DNA from: Acidimicrobiia bacterium
Lineage (GTDB): Bacteria > Acidobacteriota > Vicinamibacteria > Vicinamibacterales > UBA2999
Assembly: GCA_016871375.1 (NCBI GenBank)
Contig: VFYY01000002.1
Span: 1,749 to 65,748, forward strand
DNA length: 64,000 bases
Direction: 5' to 3'
Positions 6,343-61,100 of this stretch are shown here, piece after piece. The position numbers were made by a program, and so were the translations under genes. How positions within the stretch are numbered: the stretch's first letter is position 1; every line of letters begins with the position of its first letter. Under the pieces are notes generated by a model that saw nothing but the letters and a program-made list of their open reading frames with translations, made no database searches and was not told the DNA's origin.

Positions 6343-7602
6343 ATGCGCCCGATGAAGATGCTTTCCGTGACCGTTGCGATCGTCGCTGCCGTGGTCGTTC
6401 TACGGGCGACGCTTGCGTCGCCCCTACAGGCGCAGGCCGGCGCACGCGTCTTCGAGGGGGCGCGTCTCATCGTCGGCGACGGCAGCGCGCCGATCGAAGA
6501 CTCCGCGTTCGTCGTGCAGGGGAACCGCATCACCGCCGTCGGCCGGCGGGGCCAGGTGAACGCGCCGGCGGGCGCGCAGCGCGTCGATCTCACCGGCAAG
6601 ACCGTGATGCCGGCGATCGTCGACACGCACACGCACCTCAGCCAGGCGAAGGATGCGCTCAGCAGCGACCTGCGGCGGCGTCCGTACTACGGCGTCAGCG
6701 CGGCGATGAGCCTCGGCCAGGATCTGGCGGACGCGATGTCGATGCGCGGGCAGCCGCAGCCCGGCCTGGCGCGCTTCTTCAGCGCCGGCCTGGGCATCAC
6801 CGGGCTGGAGAAGGGGCGCATGACGTCGGCCATCCAGGTCACCACGCCCGCTGAAGCGCGGGCGGCCGTGCAGAAGGTGGCGGCGACCAAGCCCGACGTC
6901 ATCAAGATCTGGATCGACGACCGCATGGGCACGGTCGTCAAGCTCGCTCCGGATCTGTATGCCGCGGTGATCGACGAGGCGCATCGCAGCAAGCTCCGCG
7001 TCACGGCGCACATCTTCGCGCTCGAGGACGCCAAGGGCGCCACCAAGGCGGGCCTCGACGCCTACGCCCACGTGCCGGCGCGCGACAAGGACGTGGACGA
7101 CGAGTTCATGGCCATTCTCAAGGCGCGCAACCCGTCCACGGTGTGGCTGGTGCCGAACCTGCCCAACCGCGGCGTGCGCATGGATCTGAGCTGGCTGAAG
7201 GACAGCCTGCCCGCCGCGGAGCTGCAGAAGCTCGAGATGGGCAACACCGACAACGCCCAGGCGCAGCAGGCGTTCGGCATCCAGGCGCGCAACCTGAAGA
7301 AGATGAGCGACGCCGGCGTGCGCGTCATCCTCGGCACCGACGGCAACACGGCCTGGCAGCCGCACGTGGAGATGGCGGACATGGTGGCGTCCGGGCTGAC
7401 GCCGATGCAGGTGATCGTCGCCTCGACGCGCAACGGCGCCGAGTTCCTGCGCATGGCCGACGCGGGCACGATCGCCGCCGACAAGAGCGCGGACTTCATC
7501 GTGCTCGACGCCAACCCGCTCGACGACATCACGAACACGCGCAAGATCAATCGCGTGTTCCTGCGCGGCGACGAGGTCAATCGCGCGGTCTCGACACAGT
7601 AG
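6343..7602 (+). CDS. Amidohydrolase family protein, secreted (paralog 1 of 3)
   Basis: Signal peptide MRPMKMLSVTVAIVAAVVVLRA. Metal-binding motif VMPAIVDTHTHL and C-terminal ADFIVLDANPLDDI typical of metal-dependent amidohydrolases. The stop TAG lies inside a REP hairpin. Confidence 0.8.
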   Translation: MRPMKMLSVTVAIVAAVVVLRATLASPLQAQAGARVFEGARLIVGDGSAPIEDSAFVVQGNRITAVGRRGQVNAPAGAQRVDLTGKTVMPAIVDTHTHLSQAKDALSSDLRRRPYYGVSAAMSLGQDLADAMSMRGQPQPGLARFFSAGLGITGLEKGRMTSAIQVTTPAEARAAVQKVAATKPDVIKIWIDDRMGTVVKLAPDLYAAVIDEAHRSKLRVTAHIFALEDAKGATKAGLDAYAHVPARDKDVDDEFMAILKARNPSTVWLVPNLPNRGVRMDLSWLKDSLPAAELQKLEMGNTDNAQAQQAFGIQARNLKKMSDAGVRVILGTDGNTAWQPHVEMADMVASGLTPMQVIVASTRNGAEFLRMADAGTIAADKSADFIVLDANPLDDITNTRKINRVFLRGDEVNRAVSTQ

Positions 7603-7624
7603 GGGCGGGGCACGCCCCGCCCGT
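7599..7624. repeat. REP-A hairpin (GTAG + GGGCGGGGC-AC-GCCCCGCCC) between convergent genes
   Basis: Read directly as GTAGGGGCGGGGCACGCCCCGCCCGT. The GTAG head contains the stop codon of the 6343..7602 gene. It probably also acts as a bidirectional terminator-like structure. Confidence 0.8.
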
Positions 7625-24221: not shown

Positions 24222-24296
24222 CGCGTGCCCCGCTTCCGGCTCATGGCGCGTGCCGTGGTTCCGGCTCATGGCGCGTGCCCCGCTTCCGGCTCATGG
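24222..24296. repeat. 3 x 25-bp tandem repeat upstream of uvrA
   Basis: The unit CGCGTGCC[CCGC/GTGG]TTCCGGCTCATGG occurs at 24222, 24247 and 24272. Units 1 and 3 are identical. Unit 2 differs only in the central tetranucleotide. Confidence 0.9.
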
Positions 24297-24319
24297 TAGG
24301 GGCGCGGCATGCCGCGCCC
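24296..24319. repeat. REP-A hairpin GTAG+GGGCGCGGCATGCCGCGCCC
   Basis: Read directly. The sequence is identical to the copy at 30077. Confidence 0.85.
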
Positions 24320-30076: not shown

Positions 30077-30100
30077 GTAGGGGCGCGGCATGCCGCGCCC
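30077..30100. repeat. REP-A hairpin GTAG+GGGCGCGGCATGCCGCGCCC
   Basis: Read directly, 5 nt after the leuD stop. Confidence 0.85.
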
Positions 30101-47313: not shown

Positions 47314-47368
47314 GGGCGATGCATGCATCGCCCCTGCCATGACGTAGGGGCGACGCATGCGTCGCCCG
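47314..47368. repeat. REP-A doublet in inverted orientation (REPIN-like)
   Basis: GGGCGATGCATGCATCGCCCCTGC is a minus-orientation unit with head GCAG. It is followed by CATGAC and then GTAGGGGCGACGCATGCGTCGCCC, a plus-orientation unit. Confidence 0.85.
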
Positions 47369-58676: not shown

Positions 58677-59153
58677 GTGGAACGGCTGTGGTCGCCGTGG
58701 CGGCTTGAATATGTGACGAGCGCCGATCGCACGACCGGCTGCATCTTCTGCCTCAAAGAGGAAAAGGCCCTCATCGTTCATGAGGGCCTTACTTCGTACG
58801 TCATCCTCAACCTGTACCCCTATAACAACGGTCACCTCATGGTGGTCCCGTACCGTCACGTCGGCTCGCTCGCTGCGCTCACGCCAGAGGAGCTGCAGGA
58901 GATTGGCGTGCTCACGCAGCGGTGCGAGGCGGCGATCGCCGAAGCGTACGACGCGCACGGAATGAACATCGGCATCAATCTCGGCAAGCCGGCGGGCGCC
59001 GGCGTCCTCGATCATCTGCACGTGCACGTCGTGCCGCGCTGGAACGGCGACACCAACTTCATCACCGTCATCGGCGAGATGCGCGTGCTGCCGGAAGAGC
59101 TCGGTGCGTCCGCCGCACGGCTGAGGCCCATCTTCGAGCGCCTGTCGCGGTAG
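58677..59153 (+). CDS. HIT family protein (Ap4A phosphorylase/GalT-like branch)
   Basis: LWSPWRLEYV..CIFC..YVILNLYPYNNGHLMVVP..histidine triad HLHVHVVPRW. The stop TAG lies in a REP-A head. Confidence 0.85.
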   Translation: MERLWSPWRLEYVTSADRTTGCIFCLKEEKALIVHEGLTSYVILNLYPYNNGHLMVVPYRHVGSLAALTPEELQEIGVLTQRCEAAIAEAYDAHGMNIGINLGKPAGAGVLDHLHVHVVPRWNGDTNFITVIGEMRVLPEELGASAARLRPIFERLSR

Positions 59154-59186
59154 GGGCGACGCAAGCGTCGCACGTAGAATGTCCCA

Positions 59187-60194
59187 ATGGACTTCGATCT
59201 GTCCGACGTCCAGGCCGCCTGGCGCGACAAGGGCGCGGCGTTGGGCCGCGACCTCGCCGCGGATCCGGCGGCTGCCGGCGCGATCATGGGCGCCGCGCGT
59301 GTCGGCCTGCTCGATCCTGCGGCCGACCTGCTCGCCGTCACGGTCGCCACCGAGGCGATGGCCTTCGAATCGTCCGCGGCCGCGGCGATTTTCGGGCTGC
59401 ATACCGGGACGGCGCTCGCGGTTGCGGGCGACGACCGCTTCACGTCGTTCTTTCGCGGCGAAGCCGTGGCCGCGGTCGGCCTGTCGTCGGACGACGTGCC
59501 GGTGGAGAGCGGCGGGACCGTCTCGGGGCGCGCAGCCTGGGTGGCGCCGATCACTGAGCGAGGCGTGGTCGTGGTCGGGCCGCGTCCCTCGGCAAGCTCG
59601 GGACGCCCTGAGCGTGTCGAAGGGAGGCGCGGTGAGGATCGGGCGGCGTACGCGGTGTCCTTCGAGGCGCCCGGCGTCAGCATCGAGCCCGTGGAGACCG
59701 CCGCGCTGCAGGGGCTCGTCTGCGGTCACGTGACGTTCACCGCCGCCCGTTGCACGCCCCTCGGCGCCACCATCCCAATCATGACGCGCATCCGCGTGCT
59801 GATGGCCGCCGCCGGCCTCGGCATCGGGAGGCGCGCGCTTCGTGAGGCGCTGACCGCCGCGCGCGCCGCGCATACCGCCGCCGCAGGCGAGCAGACAGTG
59901 CAGGGACTGCTGGCGGATGCGGCCACCGAGCTCGACGCGGCCATGCTCATGACCTGGAAGGCGGCGGCCGCCGCCACGCCGTCCCTGGCGGATGCGTCGC
60001 TCGCCAAGCTCGCCGTCACCGCCGCGGCGCAGCGGGCCGTCGAGCGCGCCACGCAGGTTGTCGGCGCGGACAGCTTCCAGCGTGGCCACATCATCGAGCG
60101 CCTGGCGCAGGACGTCCGCGCACTGGAGCTCTTTGCCGGCCGCACCGAGGCGCTGCGCGCTGCCGCCGCCGAAGACCTGCTTCCTCACCGGTAG
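59187..60194 (+). CDS. Acyl-CoA dehydrogenase-like protein (divergent)
   Basis: 335 aa. The C-terminal helical domain pattern (AKLAVTAAAQRAVERATQVVGADSFQRGHIIERLAQDVRALELFAG) is ACAD-like. The N-terminal and middle parts are degenerate and contain a repeat-derived insert. Confidence 0.6.
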   Translation: MDFDLSDVQAAWRDKGAALGRDLAADPAAAGAIMGAARVGLLDPAADLLAVTVATEAMAFESSAAAAIFGLHTGTALAVAGDDRFTSFFRGEAVAAVGLSSDDVPVESGGTVSGRAAWVAPITERGVVVVGPRPSASSGRPERVEGRRGEDRAAYAVSFEAPGVSIEPVETAALQGLVCGHVTFTAARCTPLGATIPIMTRIRVLMAAAGLGIGRRALREALTAARAAHTAAAGEQTVQGLLADAATELDAAMLMTWKAAAAATPSLADASLAKLAVTAAAQRAVERATQVVGADSFQRGHIIERLAQDVRALELFAGRTEALRAAAAEDLLPHR

Positions 60195-61051
60195 GGGCGA
60201 GGTATTGCCTCGCCCGTAACGAAGCACCTGGCATCACGTCTGCGTTCGCCCCGTGAATGCAGGTCGATCCGGATTTCCCCGTGCGTCGGCGCGTCCGCCT
60301 GCCACAACGCGTCTATTCGGAACCCGGCGCCTTCTTCGTCACGATTTGCACGTGGCGGCGCGCCTGTGTGCTCGGAGAGATCGTCGATTACACCGTGCGT
60401 CCGGGTGCCTACGGGGCGGTGGTGGACGCCTGCTGGCGGGAGATTCCGGCGCACTTCGCCGGCGTGCAGCTCGATGCCTGCGTCGTCATGCCGAATCACC
60501 TTCACGGTATCGTCAAGATCGTCGGCGGCGGTTTGCGGGCGACGCATGCGTCGCCCCTACGACGCATGCGTGGGTCGCTCCTACCCGTGCCGATGCTGGA
60601 ACGCGGGTCGATGCTACCCGCAGCACCCCTGCGGCGGCCGCCGTCTCTCGGGACCATCGTCGGGTCGTTCAAATCGGCTGTGACCCGGCGTGTTCACGAC
60701 GGATTGCGGGCGACGCCTGCGTCGCCCCTACCACGCATAGATACGCCGGCCCGACCGCGCAGGCCGCCTCCGTTCTGGCAGCGCGGGTACTACGACCATG
60801 TCATTCGCGATGAGGCCGCGCTGCTGCGCCTGCGGCAGTACATTCTGGATAACCCCGCGCGATGGGCAGAGGATCCTGACAACGTCACGCGGTAGGGGCG
60901 AGGCATTGCCTCGCCCGTAAGGAAACGGCCTGTTTACAAAGCGATCCAGAGGTGTACGGGCGACGCCTGCGTCGCCCCTACCACGCATAGATACGCCGGG
61001 GCGGAGGATCCCGACAACGTCACGCGGTAGGGGCGAGGCATTGCCTCGCCC
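60191..61051. mobile_element. REPtron-like locus: RAYT gene bracketed by REP-A hairpins, with downstream partial duplication
   Basis: REP-A(+) units at 60191, 60892 and 61027. REP-A(-) units at 60537, 60708 (both inside the ORF) and 60958. Segment 60871-60955 is repeated at 61006-61090, and segment 60705-60749 is repeated at 60955-60999. Confidence 0.8.
60257..60895 (+). CDS. REP-associated tyrosine transposase (RAYT; IS200/IS605 TnpA-like Y1 HUH enzyme)
   Basis: HUH motif VVMPNHLHGIV. Catalytic Tyr region WQRGYYDHVIRDEAALLRLRQYILDNPARW. LGTIVGSFKSAVTRRV helix. 212 aa. Confidence 0.82.
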   Translation: MQVDPDFPVRRRVRLPQRVYSEPGAFFVTICTWRRACVLGEIVDYTVRPGAYGAVVDACWREIPAHFAGVQLDACVVMPNHLHGIVKIVGGGLRATHASPLRRMRGSLLPVPMLERGSMLPAAPLRRPPSLGTIVGSFKSAVTRRVHDGLRATPASPLPRIDTPARPRRPPPFWQRGYYDHVIRDEAALLRLRQYILDNPARWAEDPDNVTR

Positions 61052-61100
61052 GTAAGGAAACGGCCTGTTTACAAAGCGGTCCAGAGGTGGACGCAGCGGG

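What the first reader, a model, noticed from the sequence alone, without database searches (positions are those of the whole stretch)
7599..7624. REP-A family: GTAG-headed GC hairpins with covarying stems whose TAG is the stop codon of four genes
I read at least 12 copies of GTAG-G-GGCG-NN-GCA(T)TGC-NN-CGCC-C, starting at 7599, 24296, 30077, 47314(-), 47344, 59150, 60191, 60537(-), 60708(-), 60892, 60958(-) and 61027.

The internal NN pair covaries (GG/CC, CG/CG, AG/CT, AC/GT, AT/AT), so the stem rather than the sequence is conserved.

In four cases the TAG within the GTAG head is the actual stop codon:
- amidohydrolase, 7600-7602
- HIT, 59151-59153
- ACAD-like, 60192-60194
- RAYT, 60893-60895
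All four genes end in ...CGGTAG or ...CAGTAG.

A 5' GTAG is the tetranucleotide required for REP recognition and cleavage by E. coli TnpA-REP. Finding it here next to a RAYT fits an active or recently active REP/RAYT system. It also suggests REP insertion remodels gene 3' ends.
Basis: partly seen in the sequence, partly recalled or inferred. Interest (0 to 1): 0.6.

Follow-up and report, generated by a model that had tools for sequence, protein, structure and literature searches.

The report
REP hairpins that supply stop codons
A family of about 230 small mobile DNA hairpins (REPs) in this soil bacterium starts with GTAG, and in about a quarter of copies that TAG is a gene's stop codon; the effect is real and far above chance, but it was already described for GTAG REPs in 2013.

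Summary
All 12 listed copies exist, with one correction (47314(-) has a GCAG head) and one missed copy (6404-6427(-)). The four TAGs are the stop codons of the amidohydrolase, HIT, ACAD-like and RAYT ORFs.

Genome-wide I find about 229 copies, against 0-6 in each of 60 relatives. The internal NN pair is complementary in 139 of 148 copies.

The TAG is a gene's stop in 46-54 of about 180 GTAG-headed copies. The distance to the upstream stop has a roughly 40-fold spike at offset 0.

Comparison with a different-genus relative and with five REP-free alleles from close relatives shows that the TAG is usually derived. It replaces TAA or TGA at the same codon or one codon away, often as CGG-TAG. The REP therefore supplies the stop and rarely changes the protein by more than one residue.

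Another third or so of copies lie in frame inside genes and are read as G-A-T-H-A-S-P. Two of these are inside the RAYT itself.

All of this matches published descriptions:
- Di Nocera 2013: GTAG REP termini "often provide the stop codon".
- Quentin 2018: TnpAREP subclass 2.4.

This is a new member of a known kind. Why the copies sit so exactly on stop codons is unresolved.

The parts
7599..7622 (+). REP copy (GTAG + GGGCGGGGCACGCCCCGCCC). TAG at 7600-7602 is the stop of the amidohydrolase-like ORF 6343..7602.
   Evidence: hairpin -10.9 kcal/mol
6404..6427 (-). It lies in frame inside the amidohydrolase signal-peptide region and is read antisense as R-A-T-L-A-S-P-L.
   Evidence: orthologues have signal peptides of similar length without the REP
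24296..24319 (+). Intergenic REP copy. Its TAG is not a gene stop.
30077..30100 (+). Intergenic REP copy. Its TAG is not the stop of a coding frame (negative coding score).
47314..47367 (.). Head-to-head REP pair. 47314-47337(-) has a GCAG head and 47344-47367(+) has a GTAG head; the heads are 6 nt apart.
58677..59153 (+). HIT-family gene. Its stop TAG (59151-59153) is the REP head.
   Evidence: The close relative L290 ends ...CGG GGA TAA with no REP.
59150..59173 (+). REP copy supplying the HIT stop (degenerate 3' arm, CGCAC).
59187..60194 (+). Acyl-CoA-dehydrogenase-like gene. Its stop TAG (60192-60194) is the REP head.
   Evidence: Orthologues mostly end at the same LP-x-x position with TAA or TAG.
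60191..60215 (+). Left flanking REP of the RAYT (CGGTAG GGGCGAGGTATTGCCTCGCCC GTAA). It also supplies the stop of the ACAD-like gene.
   Evidence: It is conserved in the close relative L291.
60257..60895 (+). RAYT (TnpA-REP-like Y1 HUH transposase, 212 aa). HUH motif is NHLHGIV; Tyr motif is WQRGYYDHVIR.
   Evidence: NCBIfam NF047646 E=1e-15, 57.7 bits, below the 80-bit cut-off. It is the only Y1 gene in the genome flanked by this REP family.
60537..60560 (-). REP inside the RAYT coding sequence, read as R-A-T-H-A-S-P-L, between the HUH and Tyr motifs.
   Evidence: the subclass 2.4 hallmark (PMC6006769)
60708..60731 (-). Second REP inside the RAYT coding sequence, read as R-A-T-P-A-S-P-L.
60892..60916 (+). 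Right flanking REP of the RAYT (CGGTAG...). TAG at 60893-60895 is the RAYT stop.
60957..61093 (.). Partial, internally deleted duplicate of the RAYT 3' end. It contains REP 60958-60981(-) and REP 61027-61051(+).
   Evidence: Direct repeats D1 (95 nt, 96%, spacing 135) and D2 (43 nt, 100%). The same kind of structure is described in PMC2817692.

Best explanation
These are copies of a lineage-specific family of GTAG-headed repetitive extragenic palindromes (REPs). Each copy is about 24-32 nt: [CG]-GTAG, a 9-bp G+C stem with a 2-3 nt loop, then G-T-A.

Their cognate REP-associated tyrosine transposase (RAYT, resembling TnpAREP subclass 2.4) is the ORF at 60257-60895. That the RAYT moves these copies is inferred, not shown.

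GTAG is an obligatory part of the element: in characterised RAYTs it is the guide or recognition tetranucleotide. Every copy therefore carries a TAG next to its hairpin.

Shown here: when a copy sits on the end of an ORF in register, that TAG terminates the gene. This holds for about 25-30% of copies. Comparison with relatives shows the TAG is normally brought by the REP. It overwrites the last base of the final codon plus an ancestral TAA or TGA (less often TAG), at the same codon or one codon away. This often leaves or creates a terminal CGG (Arg).

Inferred: the extreme excess at offset 0 comes from two things acting together.
- Purifying selection. Only frame 0 (immediate stop) and frame 1 (a harmless V-G-A-T-H-A-S-P read-through) are tolerated.
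- A local insertion preference at gene ends, possibly after a CG dinucleotide.

A likely consequence is a stable hairpin starting 1 nt after the stop codon. By analogy with E. coli REPs closer than 16 nt to a stop, this could stabilise the mRNA 3' end and could slow termination.
For: Family and RAYT:
- About 229 loci in the genome, 183 with GTAG heads.
- 148 exact hits here against 0-6 in each of 60 relatives.
- The RAYT matches the profile and is flanked by two CGGTAG REPs.

TAG as stop:
- 46 of 184 by my gene calls.
- 54 of 177 by a frame test that does not depend on gene calls. Frames 0, 1 and 2 score 54, 15 and 1.
- Offset 0 holds 46 copies; each nearby offset holds about 1.

TAG derived:
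- Among 11 REP-stop genes whose G014 orthologue ends at the same residue, the orthologue stop is TAG in 2. In GTAG-ending control genes without a REP it is TAG in 63 of 103 (Fisher p=0.009).
- Five REP-free alleles from relatives at 90% or more amino-acid identity end in TAA (2), TGA (2) and TAG (1). Their end positions relative to the window gene are 0, 0, 0, +1 and -1 codon.

Other points:
- The last codon is CGG in 24 of 54 against 77 of 549 controls (p=4e-7).
- An 8-aa (24-nt) REP insertion is seen in a signal peptide when compared with a close relative.

Literature: the role of GTAG (PMC8266576); REP termini provide TAG stops (PMC3733652).
Against: - RAYT activity and the cleavage or target site were not tested.
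- The RAYT scores below the NCBIfam equivalog cut-off, even with the REP inserts removed.
- The orthologue test rests on 26 genes, of which 11 have the same length, and on 55% of one relative's genome.
- My gene calls are crude (codon log-odds, longest ORF).
- One close relative does end in the same AAG TAG without a REP, so some copies may simply abut a pre-existing GTAG.
- 10 of 26 REP-stop genes are 1-14 aa shorter than the orthologue (38%, against 22-30% in controls). Some truncation therefore occurs, and selection alone may explain more of the spike than I allow.
- No expression data were available, so the effect on mRNA or termination is purely by analogy.
Confidence: 0.75

Rival explanations
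1. Target-site model. The REP core inserts immediately 3' of a pre-existing (G)TAG, as IS200/IS605 elements insert 3' of a fixed tetranucleotide. On this view the stop codon belongs to the gene, not the REP. GTAG-ending genes are simply the most common tolerated targets.
For: - GTAG is the commonest stop quartet (615 of 3181 genes).
- REPs occupy GTAG sites more often at stops than in intergenic DNA (7.5% against 2.1%).
- The close relative L298 ends AAG TAG at the same place without a REP.
- The closest genome relative for HIT (L007) ends CGT TAG at the same residue.
Against: - Orthologue stops at the same position are TAG in only 2 of 11, against 61% for GTAG-ending controls (p=0.009).
- 4 of 5 REP-free close alleles end in TAA or TGA.
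- Even with GTAG availability as the null, stops are over-represented (46 of 128 against 13.9% expected, p=3e-10).
- In characterised systems GTAG is part of the REP and is needed for RAYT recognition.
Confidence: 0.1
2. Functional-selection model. Insertion is essentially random, and copies whose hairpin starts at the stop codon are kept because they benefit the host. Possible benefits are protection of the mRNA 3' end or tuning of termination and translation. The spike at offset 0 would then be adaptive.
For: - In E. coli REPs are concentrated 1-20 nt from ORF ends, and those closer than 16 nt to the stop lower translation (Liang 2015, as summarised in PMC12306157).
- Di Nocera 2013 finds REPs mostly downstream of unidirectional or convergent ORFs.
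- A smaller spike is also seen on the tail side of the REP (12 convergent-gene stops at +1..+3).
Against: - No expression or fitness data.
- Offsets 1-20 would give nearly the same hairpin placement, yet each holds about 40 times fewer copies.
- About a third of copies are inside genes, where no such role applies.
- No U-tract follows the hairpins (sequences), so they are not canonical intrinsic terminators.
Confidence: 0.13
3. These are not mobile REPs but locally evolved G+C hairpins (terminators or regulatory stems) that happen to follow TAG stops.
For: The hairpins are stable and lie at gene ends.
Against: - 73 copies share an identical 20-nt core.
- The GTAG head is conserved.
- Copies occur on both strands, inside genes, and flanking and inside a RAYT.
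- The family is absent from 55 of 60 relatives.
- REP-free alleles exist in close relatives.
Confidence: 0.02

Closest known systems
GTAG-tagged REP families (Di Nocera, De Gregorio & Rocco 2013, BMC Genomics 14:522, PMC3733652)
   Same: - Short G+C palindromes with a 5' GTAG.
- High copy number and species-specific families.
- Location next to ORF 3' ends.
[quoted passage not shown]
- Intragenic in-frame copies, many in replication and repair genes. Here they are in UvrD, two Lhr paralogues, Obg and MetH.
   Different: - The family and host lineage are new.
- The share of copies at stops (about 25-30%) and inside genes (about 30%) is quantified here and is high.
- Relatives show that the TAG replaces TAA or TGA in register, which the paper did not test.
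TnpAREP subclass 2.4 REPtrons (Quentin, Siguier, Chandler & Fichant 2018, BMC Genomics 19:475, PMC6006769)
   Same: - REPs inserted in frame inside the tnpAREP gene between the HuH and Tyr motifs.
- Canonical long REPs with three G-C pairs at the foot.
- 'Double-foot' REPs (GTAG...CTAC). Both REP types occur in this genome.
   Different: - I did not place the protein in their tree, so the subclass assignment is by features only.
- The two flanking REPs here are in direct orientation, not inverted.
E. coli, S. maltophilia and Marinomonas REP/TnpAREP systems (Messing 2012, PMC3479197; Corneloup 2021, PMC8266576)
   Same: - A 5' GTAG at the hairpin foot acts as recognition or guide sequence.
- A Y1 HUH enzyme is present.
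- The REPtron arrangement is the same.
   Different: - The proteins are only distantly related (57.7 bits against the E. coli-type model, no PDB hit by sequence).
- Those enzymes cleave at CT or CA. Here CG is the commonest dinucleotide 5' of GTAG, and the cleavage site is unknown.
E. coli REPs within 15 nt of a stop codon (Liang, Rudd & Deutscher 2015, cited through PMC12306157)
   Same: A REP hairpin lies immediately downstream of the termination codon.
   Different: - In that work the hairpin follows the stop. Here the stop is part of the element.
- No functional data are available here.
Rickettsia palindromic elements (RPE), as discussed in PMC3733652
   Same: Palindromic repeats inserted in frame in protein-coding genes and translated as short peptide segments.
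   Different: RPEs are CGTC-tagged or longer elements in a different lineage, and no RAYT link has been shown for them.

Membership tests
REP (GTAG-tagged repetitive extragenic palindrome) | Short (20-40 bp) palindrome able to form a stem-loop | tested here: met
   A 9-bp stem with a 2-3 nt loop, -8 to -14 kcal/mol as ssDNA. 139 of 148 copies keep NN complementarity.
REP (GTAG-tagged repetitive extragenic palindrome) | Conserved 5' GT[AG]G tetranucleotide at the foot of the hairpin | tested here: met
   183 GTAG heads and 31 GCAG heads among 229 loci
REP (GTAG-tagged repetitive extragenic palindrome) | High copy number (more than 100 per genome), dispersed and lineage-specific | tested here: met
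   About 229 loci on many contigs. 148 exact hits against 0-6 in each of 60 relatives.
REP (GTAG-tagged repetitive extragenic palindrome) | Predominantly extragenic location | tested here: inconclusive
   140 of 229 are intergenic, 46-54 overlap a stop, and up to 77 lie inside called ORFs. My gene calls are crude, but several intragenic cases were confirmed against homologues. Intragenic REPs are documented for this class.
REP (GTAG-tagged repetitive extragenic palindrome) | Cognate RAYT gene flanked by copies of the same REP (REPtron) | tested here: met
   Of the five Y1-like genes in the genome, only the window's is flanked by this family.
RAYT / TnpAREP (Y1 HUH transposase) | Profile match to REP-associated tyrosine transposase | tested here: inconclusive
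   NF047646 gives E=1e-15 and 57.7 bits, below the 80-bit equivalog cut-off. With the REP inserts removed there is one continuous match to positions 3-133 of 146 at 58.8 bits. Pfam Y1_Tnp gives only E=0.14.
RAYT / TnpAREP (Y1 HUH transposase) | HUH motif and catalytic Tyr | tested here: met
   NHLHGIV and WQRGYYDHVIR are read in the ORF. In one search the WQRGYYDHVIR segment aligns with the equivalent motif of homologues from several phyla; the printed alignment was cut around the HUH region, where only a few homologue rows are visible. Which Tyr is catalytic was not determined.
RAYT / TnpAREP (Y1 HUH transposase) | Binds and cleaves its REP as single-stranded DNA | not testable with these tools
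   Needs purified protein and a cleavage / strand-transfer assay.
TnpAREP subclass 2.4 (Quentin 2018) | REP copies inserted in frame inside tnpAREP between the HuH and Tyr motifs | tested here: met
   REPs at 60537-60560(-) and 60708-60731(-) lie in frame. They are conserved in the 94%-identical relative L291.
TnpAREP subclass 2.4 (Quentin 2018) | Associated long canonical REPs (three G-C pairs at the foot) and 'double-foot' REPs | tested here: met
   The GGG...CCC foot is present. There are 24 loci with GTAG on both strands, such as GTAG-GGGCACGGCG(N)CGCCGTGCCC-CTAC.
TnpAREP subclass 2.4 (Quentin 2018) | Phylogenetic placement within the subclass | not tested

The most novel reading that the evidence does not exclude
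REPs of this family home to stop codons in register, whatever the stop codon is. One possible route is insertion after the CG of a terminal CGN codon. Another is coupling to a feature of gene ends. Either way the element rewrites N-TAA or N-TGA to G-TAG without changing the protein. This would be a site-specific 'stop-codon homing' strategy that minimises the cost of a selfish element, rather than only a survivor bias.
Probability: 0.2. Interest if true: 0.6.

Novelty: new member of a known kind. Interest (0 to 1): 0.3.

Why it matters
The result shows how a selfish palindromic element can become part of ordinary genes. About 1.5% of this genome's genes now end in a stop codon delivered by a REP, and dozens of proteins, including essential ones such as Obg, carry a REP-encoded peptide.

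For annotation, stop codons and C-terminal residues in REP-rich genomes can be recent, element-derived features.

The phenomenon itself is published. The added value here has three parts:
- Quantification of the effect.
- Evidence that the TAG is derived.
- The open question of why placement on the stop codon is so exact.

Tried and rejected
- A pure 'GTAG target' null. Stops are still 2.6-fold over-represented relative to available GTAG sites, and orthologue stops are mostly not TAG.

- A 3-bp GTA target-site-duplication model, GTA[G-core]GTA[A]. The G-T-A after the core occurs equally in intergenic copies and fits the palindromic partner of the head across a conserved G·G mismatch. REP-stop copies whose orthologue has TGA do not carry GTAA tails.

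- Defining the inserted unit from intragenic copies. In Obg the REP sits in a loop whose length varies among relatives, so its boundaries cannot be set. Only the signal-peptide case gave a clean 24-nt difference. Even there the empty site already contains GCGCCCG, so the junction is ambiguous.

- The idea that REPs inflate TAG usage. The relative G014, which lacks the family, has about the same TAG share (about 39% against 37%).

- Two 'REP-stop' cases flagged by my loose filter (TAG followed by GGGC) were not REPs. These are the C49 and C126 genes. The 26-gene orthologue set also includes a few other GTAG-headed palindrome families.

- Sequence search of the RAYT against PDB chains found nothing useful.

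Full report
**The observation**

The window is C2:1749-65748 of a 4.2-Mb, 295-contig, 68.9% G+C draft genome.

Reading each of the 12 listed positions shows a copy at every one. There are three corrections:
- The copy at 47314(-) has a GCAG head.
- Two copies have degenerate loops or arms.
- A thirteenth copy at 6404-6427(-) was missed.

ORF lists confirm that the TAGs at 7600-7602, 59151-59153, 60192-60194 and 60893-60895 end four ORFs. These are:
- an amidohydrolase-like ORF,
- a HIT ORF (PF01230),
- an acyl-CoA-dehydrogenase-like ORF (PF00441),
- a 212-aa RAYT-like ORF (NCBIfam REP_Tyr_transpos, E=1e-15, below the cut-off).

**The family genome-wide**

A fuzzy core search with a hairpin filter finds about 229 loci, 183 with GTAG heads and 31 with GCAG. 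There are 73 copies of one identical 20-nt core. A second 'double-foot' type, GTAG-GGGCACGGCG(N)CGCCGTGCCC-CTAC, is also present.

With only the outer bases fixed, 139 of 148 copies keep the NN pair complementary, in seven types. Most of this is subfamily amplification.

The consensus extends beyond the head and core:
- CG is the commonest dinucleotide 5' of GTAG.
- G-T-A follows the core. It pairs back to the head across a conserved G·G mismatch.

The family is essentially private to this genome: 148 exact hits against 0-6 in each of 60 family- and order-level relatives.

Of five Y1-transposase-like genes in the genome, only the window's is flanked by this REP family. Both flanking copies read CGGTAG and have the same orientation as the gene.

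I built a crude gene caller from codon log-odds. It gives 3327 genes, with stops TGA 1503, TAG 1171 and TAA 507. With it, the TAG of the head is the stop of a called gene in 46 of 184 TAG-headed copies.

A test that does not depend on gene calls looks for the best coding frame in the 150 nt upstream. It gives:
- frame 0 (TAG in frame): 54 copies,
- frame 1: 15 copies,
- frame 2: 1 copy.

The offset from the upstream co-oriented stop is 0 in 46 copies. Offsets 1-10 hold 10 copies and offsets 11-20 hold 7. The Poisson probability is about 1e-62.

If GTAG availability is taken as the null, stops are still over-represented. REPs occupy 46 of 615 stop GTAGs and 82 of 3818 intergenic GTAGs (p=3e-10). 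The association with stop codons is therefore real and very strong.

**Does the REP supply the stop or abut an existing one?**

I then compared C-termini for 1004 orthologue pairs.

For the 26 REP-stop genes with an orthologue:
- 11 end at the same residue as the orthologue.
- 5 are one residue longer (19% against 6% in other genes, p=0.02).
- 10 are 1-14 residues shorter (38% against 22-30% in controls).

Among the 11 same-length cases the orthologue's stop is TAG in only 2. It is TAG in 63 of 103 GTAG-ending genes without a REP (p=0.009) and in 115 of 211 of all TAG-ending genes (p=0.027). The figure for REP-stop genes resembles the 29% seen for TGA/TAA genes.

A 96.7%-identical gene shows the change directly. 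The orthologue reads CTC TGA gcc ATG. This genome reads CTG TAG GGGCCGACGGTAGTCGGCCC gggaacgaact ATG.

Close relatives (clusters at 90% or more amino-acid identity) gave five REP-free alleles:

| Gene | Relative | Relative's end | Position vs this genome |
|---|---|---|---|
| HIT | L290 | ...CGG GGA TAA | relative +1 aa |
| MBL-fold hydrolase | L293/L294 | ...CGG TAA | same end |
| FAA hydrolase | L297 | ...CGC TGA (this genome: CGG TAG + REP) | same end |
| C31 gene | L292 | ...CCA TGA, overlapping the next ATG | this genome +1 aa |
| C21 gene | L298 | ...AAG TAG | same end, same stop |

A 94%-identical RAYT locus (L291) shares the REPs at the ACAD-like stop, at the RAYT stop and inside the RAYT.

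In most cases, then, the TAG is derived and delivered by the REP. It replaces the ancestral stop at the same codon or one codon away. The last codon is CGG in 24 of 54 REP-stop genes against 77 of 549 controls (p=4e-7). This fits an element whose 5' flank reads CG-GTAG.

**REPs inside genes**

Up to 77 copies lie inside called ORFs. They are strongly biased to the frame read as (G/R)-A-T-H-A-S-P in either orientation (64 of 77).

Some of these will be artefacts of taking the longest ORF. Several are clearly coding:
- Obg, where the REP sits in a variable loop.
- A UvrD-like helicase, with two copies.
- Two Lhr-like paralogues, with the REP at the same position in both.
- MetH and NuoL.
- Signal-peptide c-regions. 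In one of these a close relative lacks exactly 8 aa, which is 24 nt.

The RAYT itself carries two antisense copies between its HUH and Tyr motifs. Removing them gives one continuous match to the RAYT profile.

**Mechanism**

Shown:
- The element carries GTAG.
- The TAG acts as the stop of many ORFs.
- The TAG is usually derived.
- The protein end is little changed.

From the literature: GTAG is the recognition or guide tetranucleotide of RAYTs, which cleave at CT or CA dinucleotides beside the REP (PMC8266576).

Inferred: the offset-0 spike needs more than random insertion followed by loss of harmful copies. The ancestral stop position (within one codon) holds roughly 30 times more copies than any neighbouring offset. 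I therefore suspect a local insertion preference, acting together with selection that tolerates only frame 0 and frame 1. I could not separate the two.

A hairpin that starts 1 nt after the stop might stabilise the mRNA 3' end or slow termination, as reported for E. coli REPs closer than 16 nt to a stop (Liang 2015, via PMC12306157). Nothing here tests that. The hairpins lack U-tracts, so they are not canonical intrinsic terminators (sequences).

**Comparison with what is known**

- Di Nocera et al. 2013 describe GTAG-tagged REPs across prokaryotes. [quoted passage not shown]
- Quentin et al. 2018 describe TnpAREP subclass 2.4. Its features are in-frame REPs inside the transposase gene, canonical long REPs with a GGG foot, and double-foot REPs.
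- Nunvar et al. 2010 describe RAYT 3' ends incorporated into REP arrays. This matches the partial duplicate at 60957-61093.

Every element of the finding therefore has a published precedent.

**Verdict**

This is a new member of a known kind. Interest is modest (0.3).

What this analysis adds to the published description:
- the scale of the effect,
- the evidence that the TAG is derived,
- the CGG-TAG signature,
- the unexplained precision of placement on stop codons.

**Limits**

- Gene calling was home-made.
- Only one distant relative was sampled, and only at 55%.
- Only five close empty alleles were found.

Noticed in passing
genome contigs C97:10490, C197:2092, C154:6025 (outside the window): Three 'double-foot' REPs (GTAG-core-CTAC) appear to give the TAG stop to both convergent genes at once. 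The whole space between the two genes is then one 29-nt palindrome.
   Followed up: partly
genome-wide; window example 6404-6427: Several REPs lie in the c-region of signal peptides, just before an A-x-A/Q cleavage-like motif (for example ...VVVL-RATLASPL-QAQA). A close relative of one such gene lacks exactly 8 aa (24 nt).
   Followed up: partly
genome contigs C26:28403 and C70:16022: Two Lhr-like helicase paralogues carry the same REP at the same position (LERL...-RATHASPL-QRIGLSAT). This suggests either a site preference or gene conversion between the paralogues.
   Followed up: no
window 60957-61093: A partial, internally deleted duplicate of the RAYT 3' end with its REPs (95-nt repeat at 96%, 43-nt repeat at 100%). 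It resembles the RAYT-end-in-BIME structures of Nunvar 2010.
   Followed up: partly
loci L007, L036, L040, L087, L299 (relatives): Relatives that lack this family have their own, different palindromic repeats abutting or supplying stop codons. Examples are CGT TAG ACGGACCTGAAGGTCCGTC after HIT in G018, AGT TAG GGCGCGCGCC after the ACAD-like gene in soil metagenome contigs, and GTAGGGGCCGGCCTTCAGGCCGGCCC in L299.
   Followed up: no
whole genome: TAG is used for 37% of stops in a 69% G+C genome, and GTAG is the commonest stop quartet. The relative G014 shows a similar TAG share (about 39%), so this is a lineage trait and not caused by the REPs.
   Followed up: partly
genome contigs C1, C17, C41 (outside the window): Other GTAG-headed palindrome families (for example GTAG-GGGCCGACGGTAGTCGGCCC and GTAG-GGGCCGGCTTCAGCCGGCCC) also supply TAG stops.
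   Followed up: no
locus L292 against genome contig C31:13781-14600: At one REP-stop site the close relative has an ATGA stop/start overlap with the next gene. This genome instead has the REP followed by a new AGGAGG Shine-Dalgarno-like sequence and a different N-terminus for the downstream gene.
   Followed up: no
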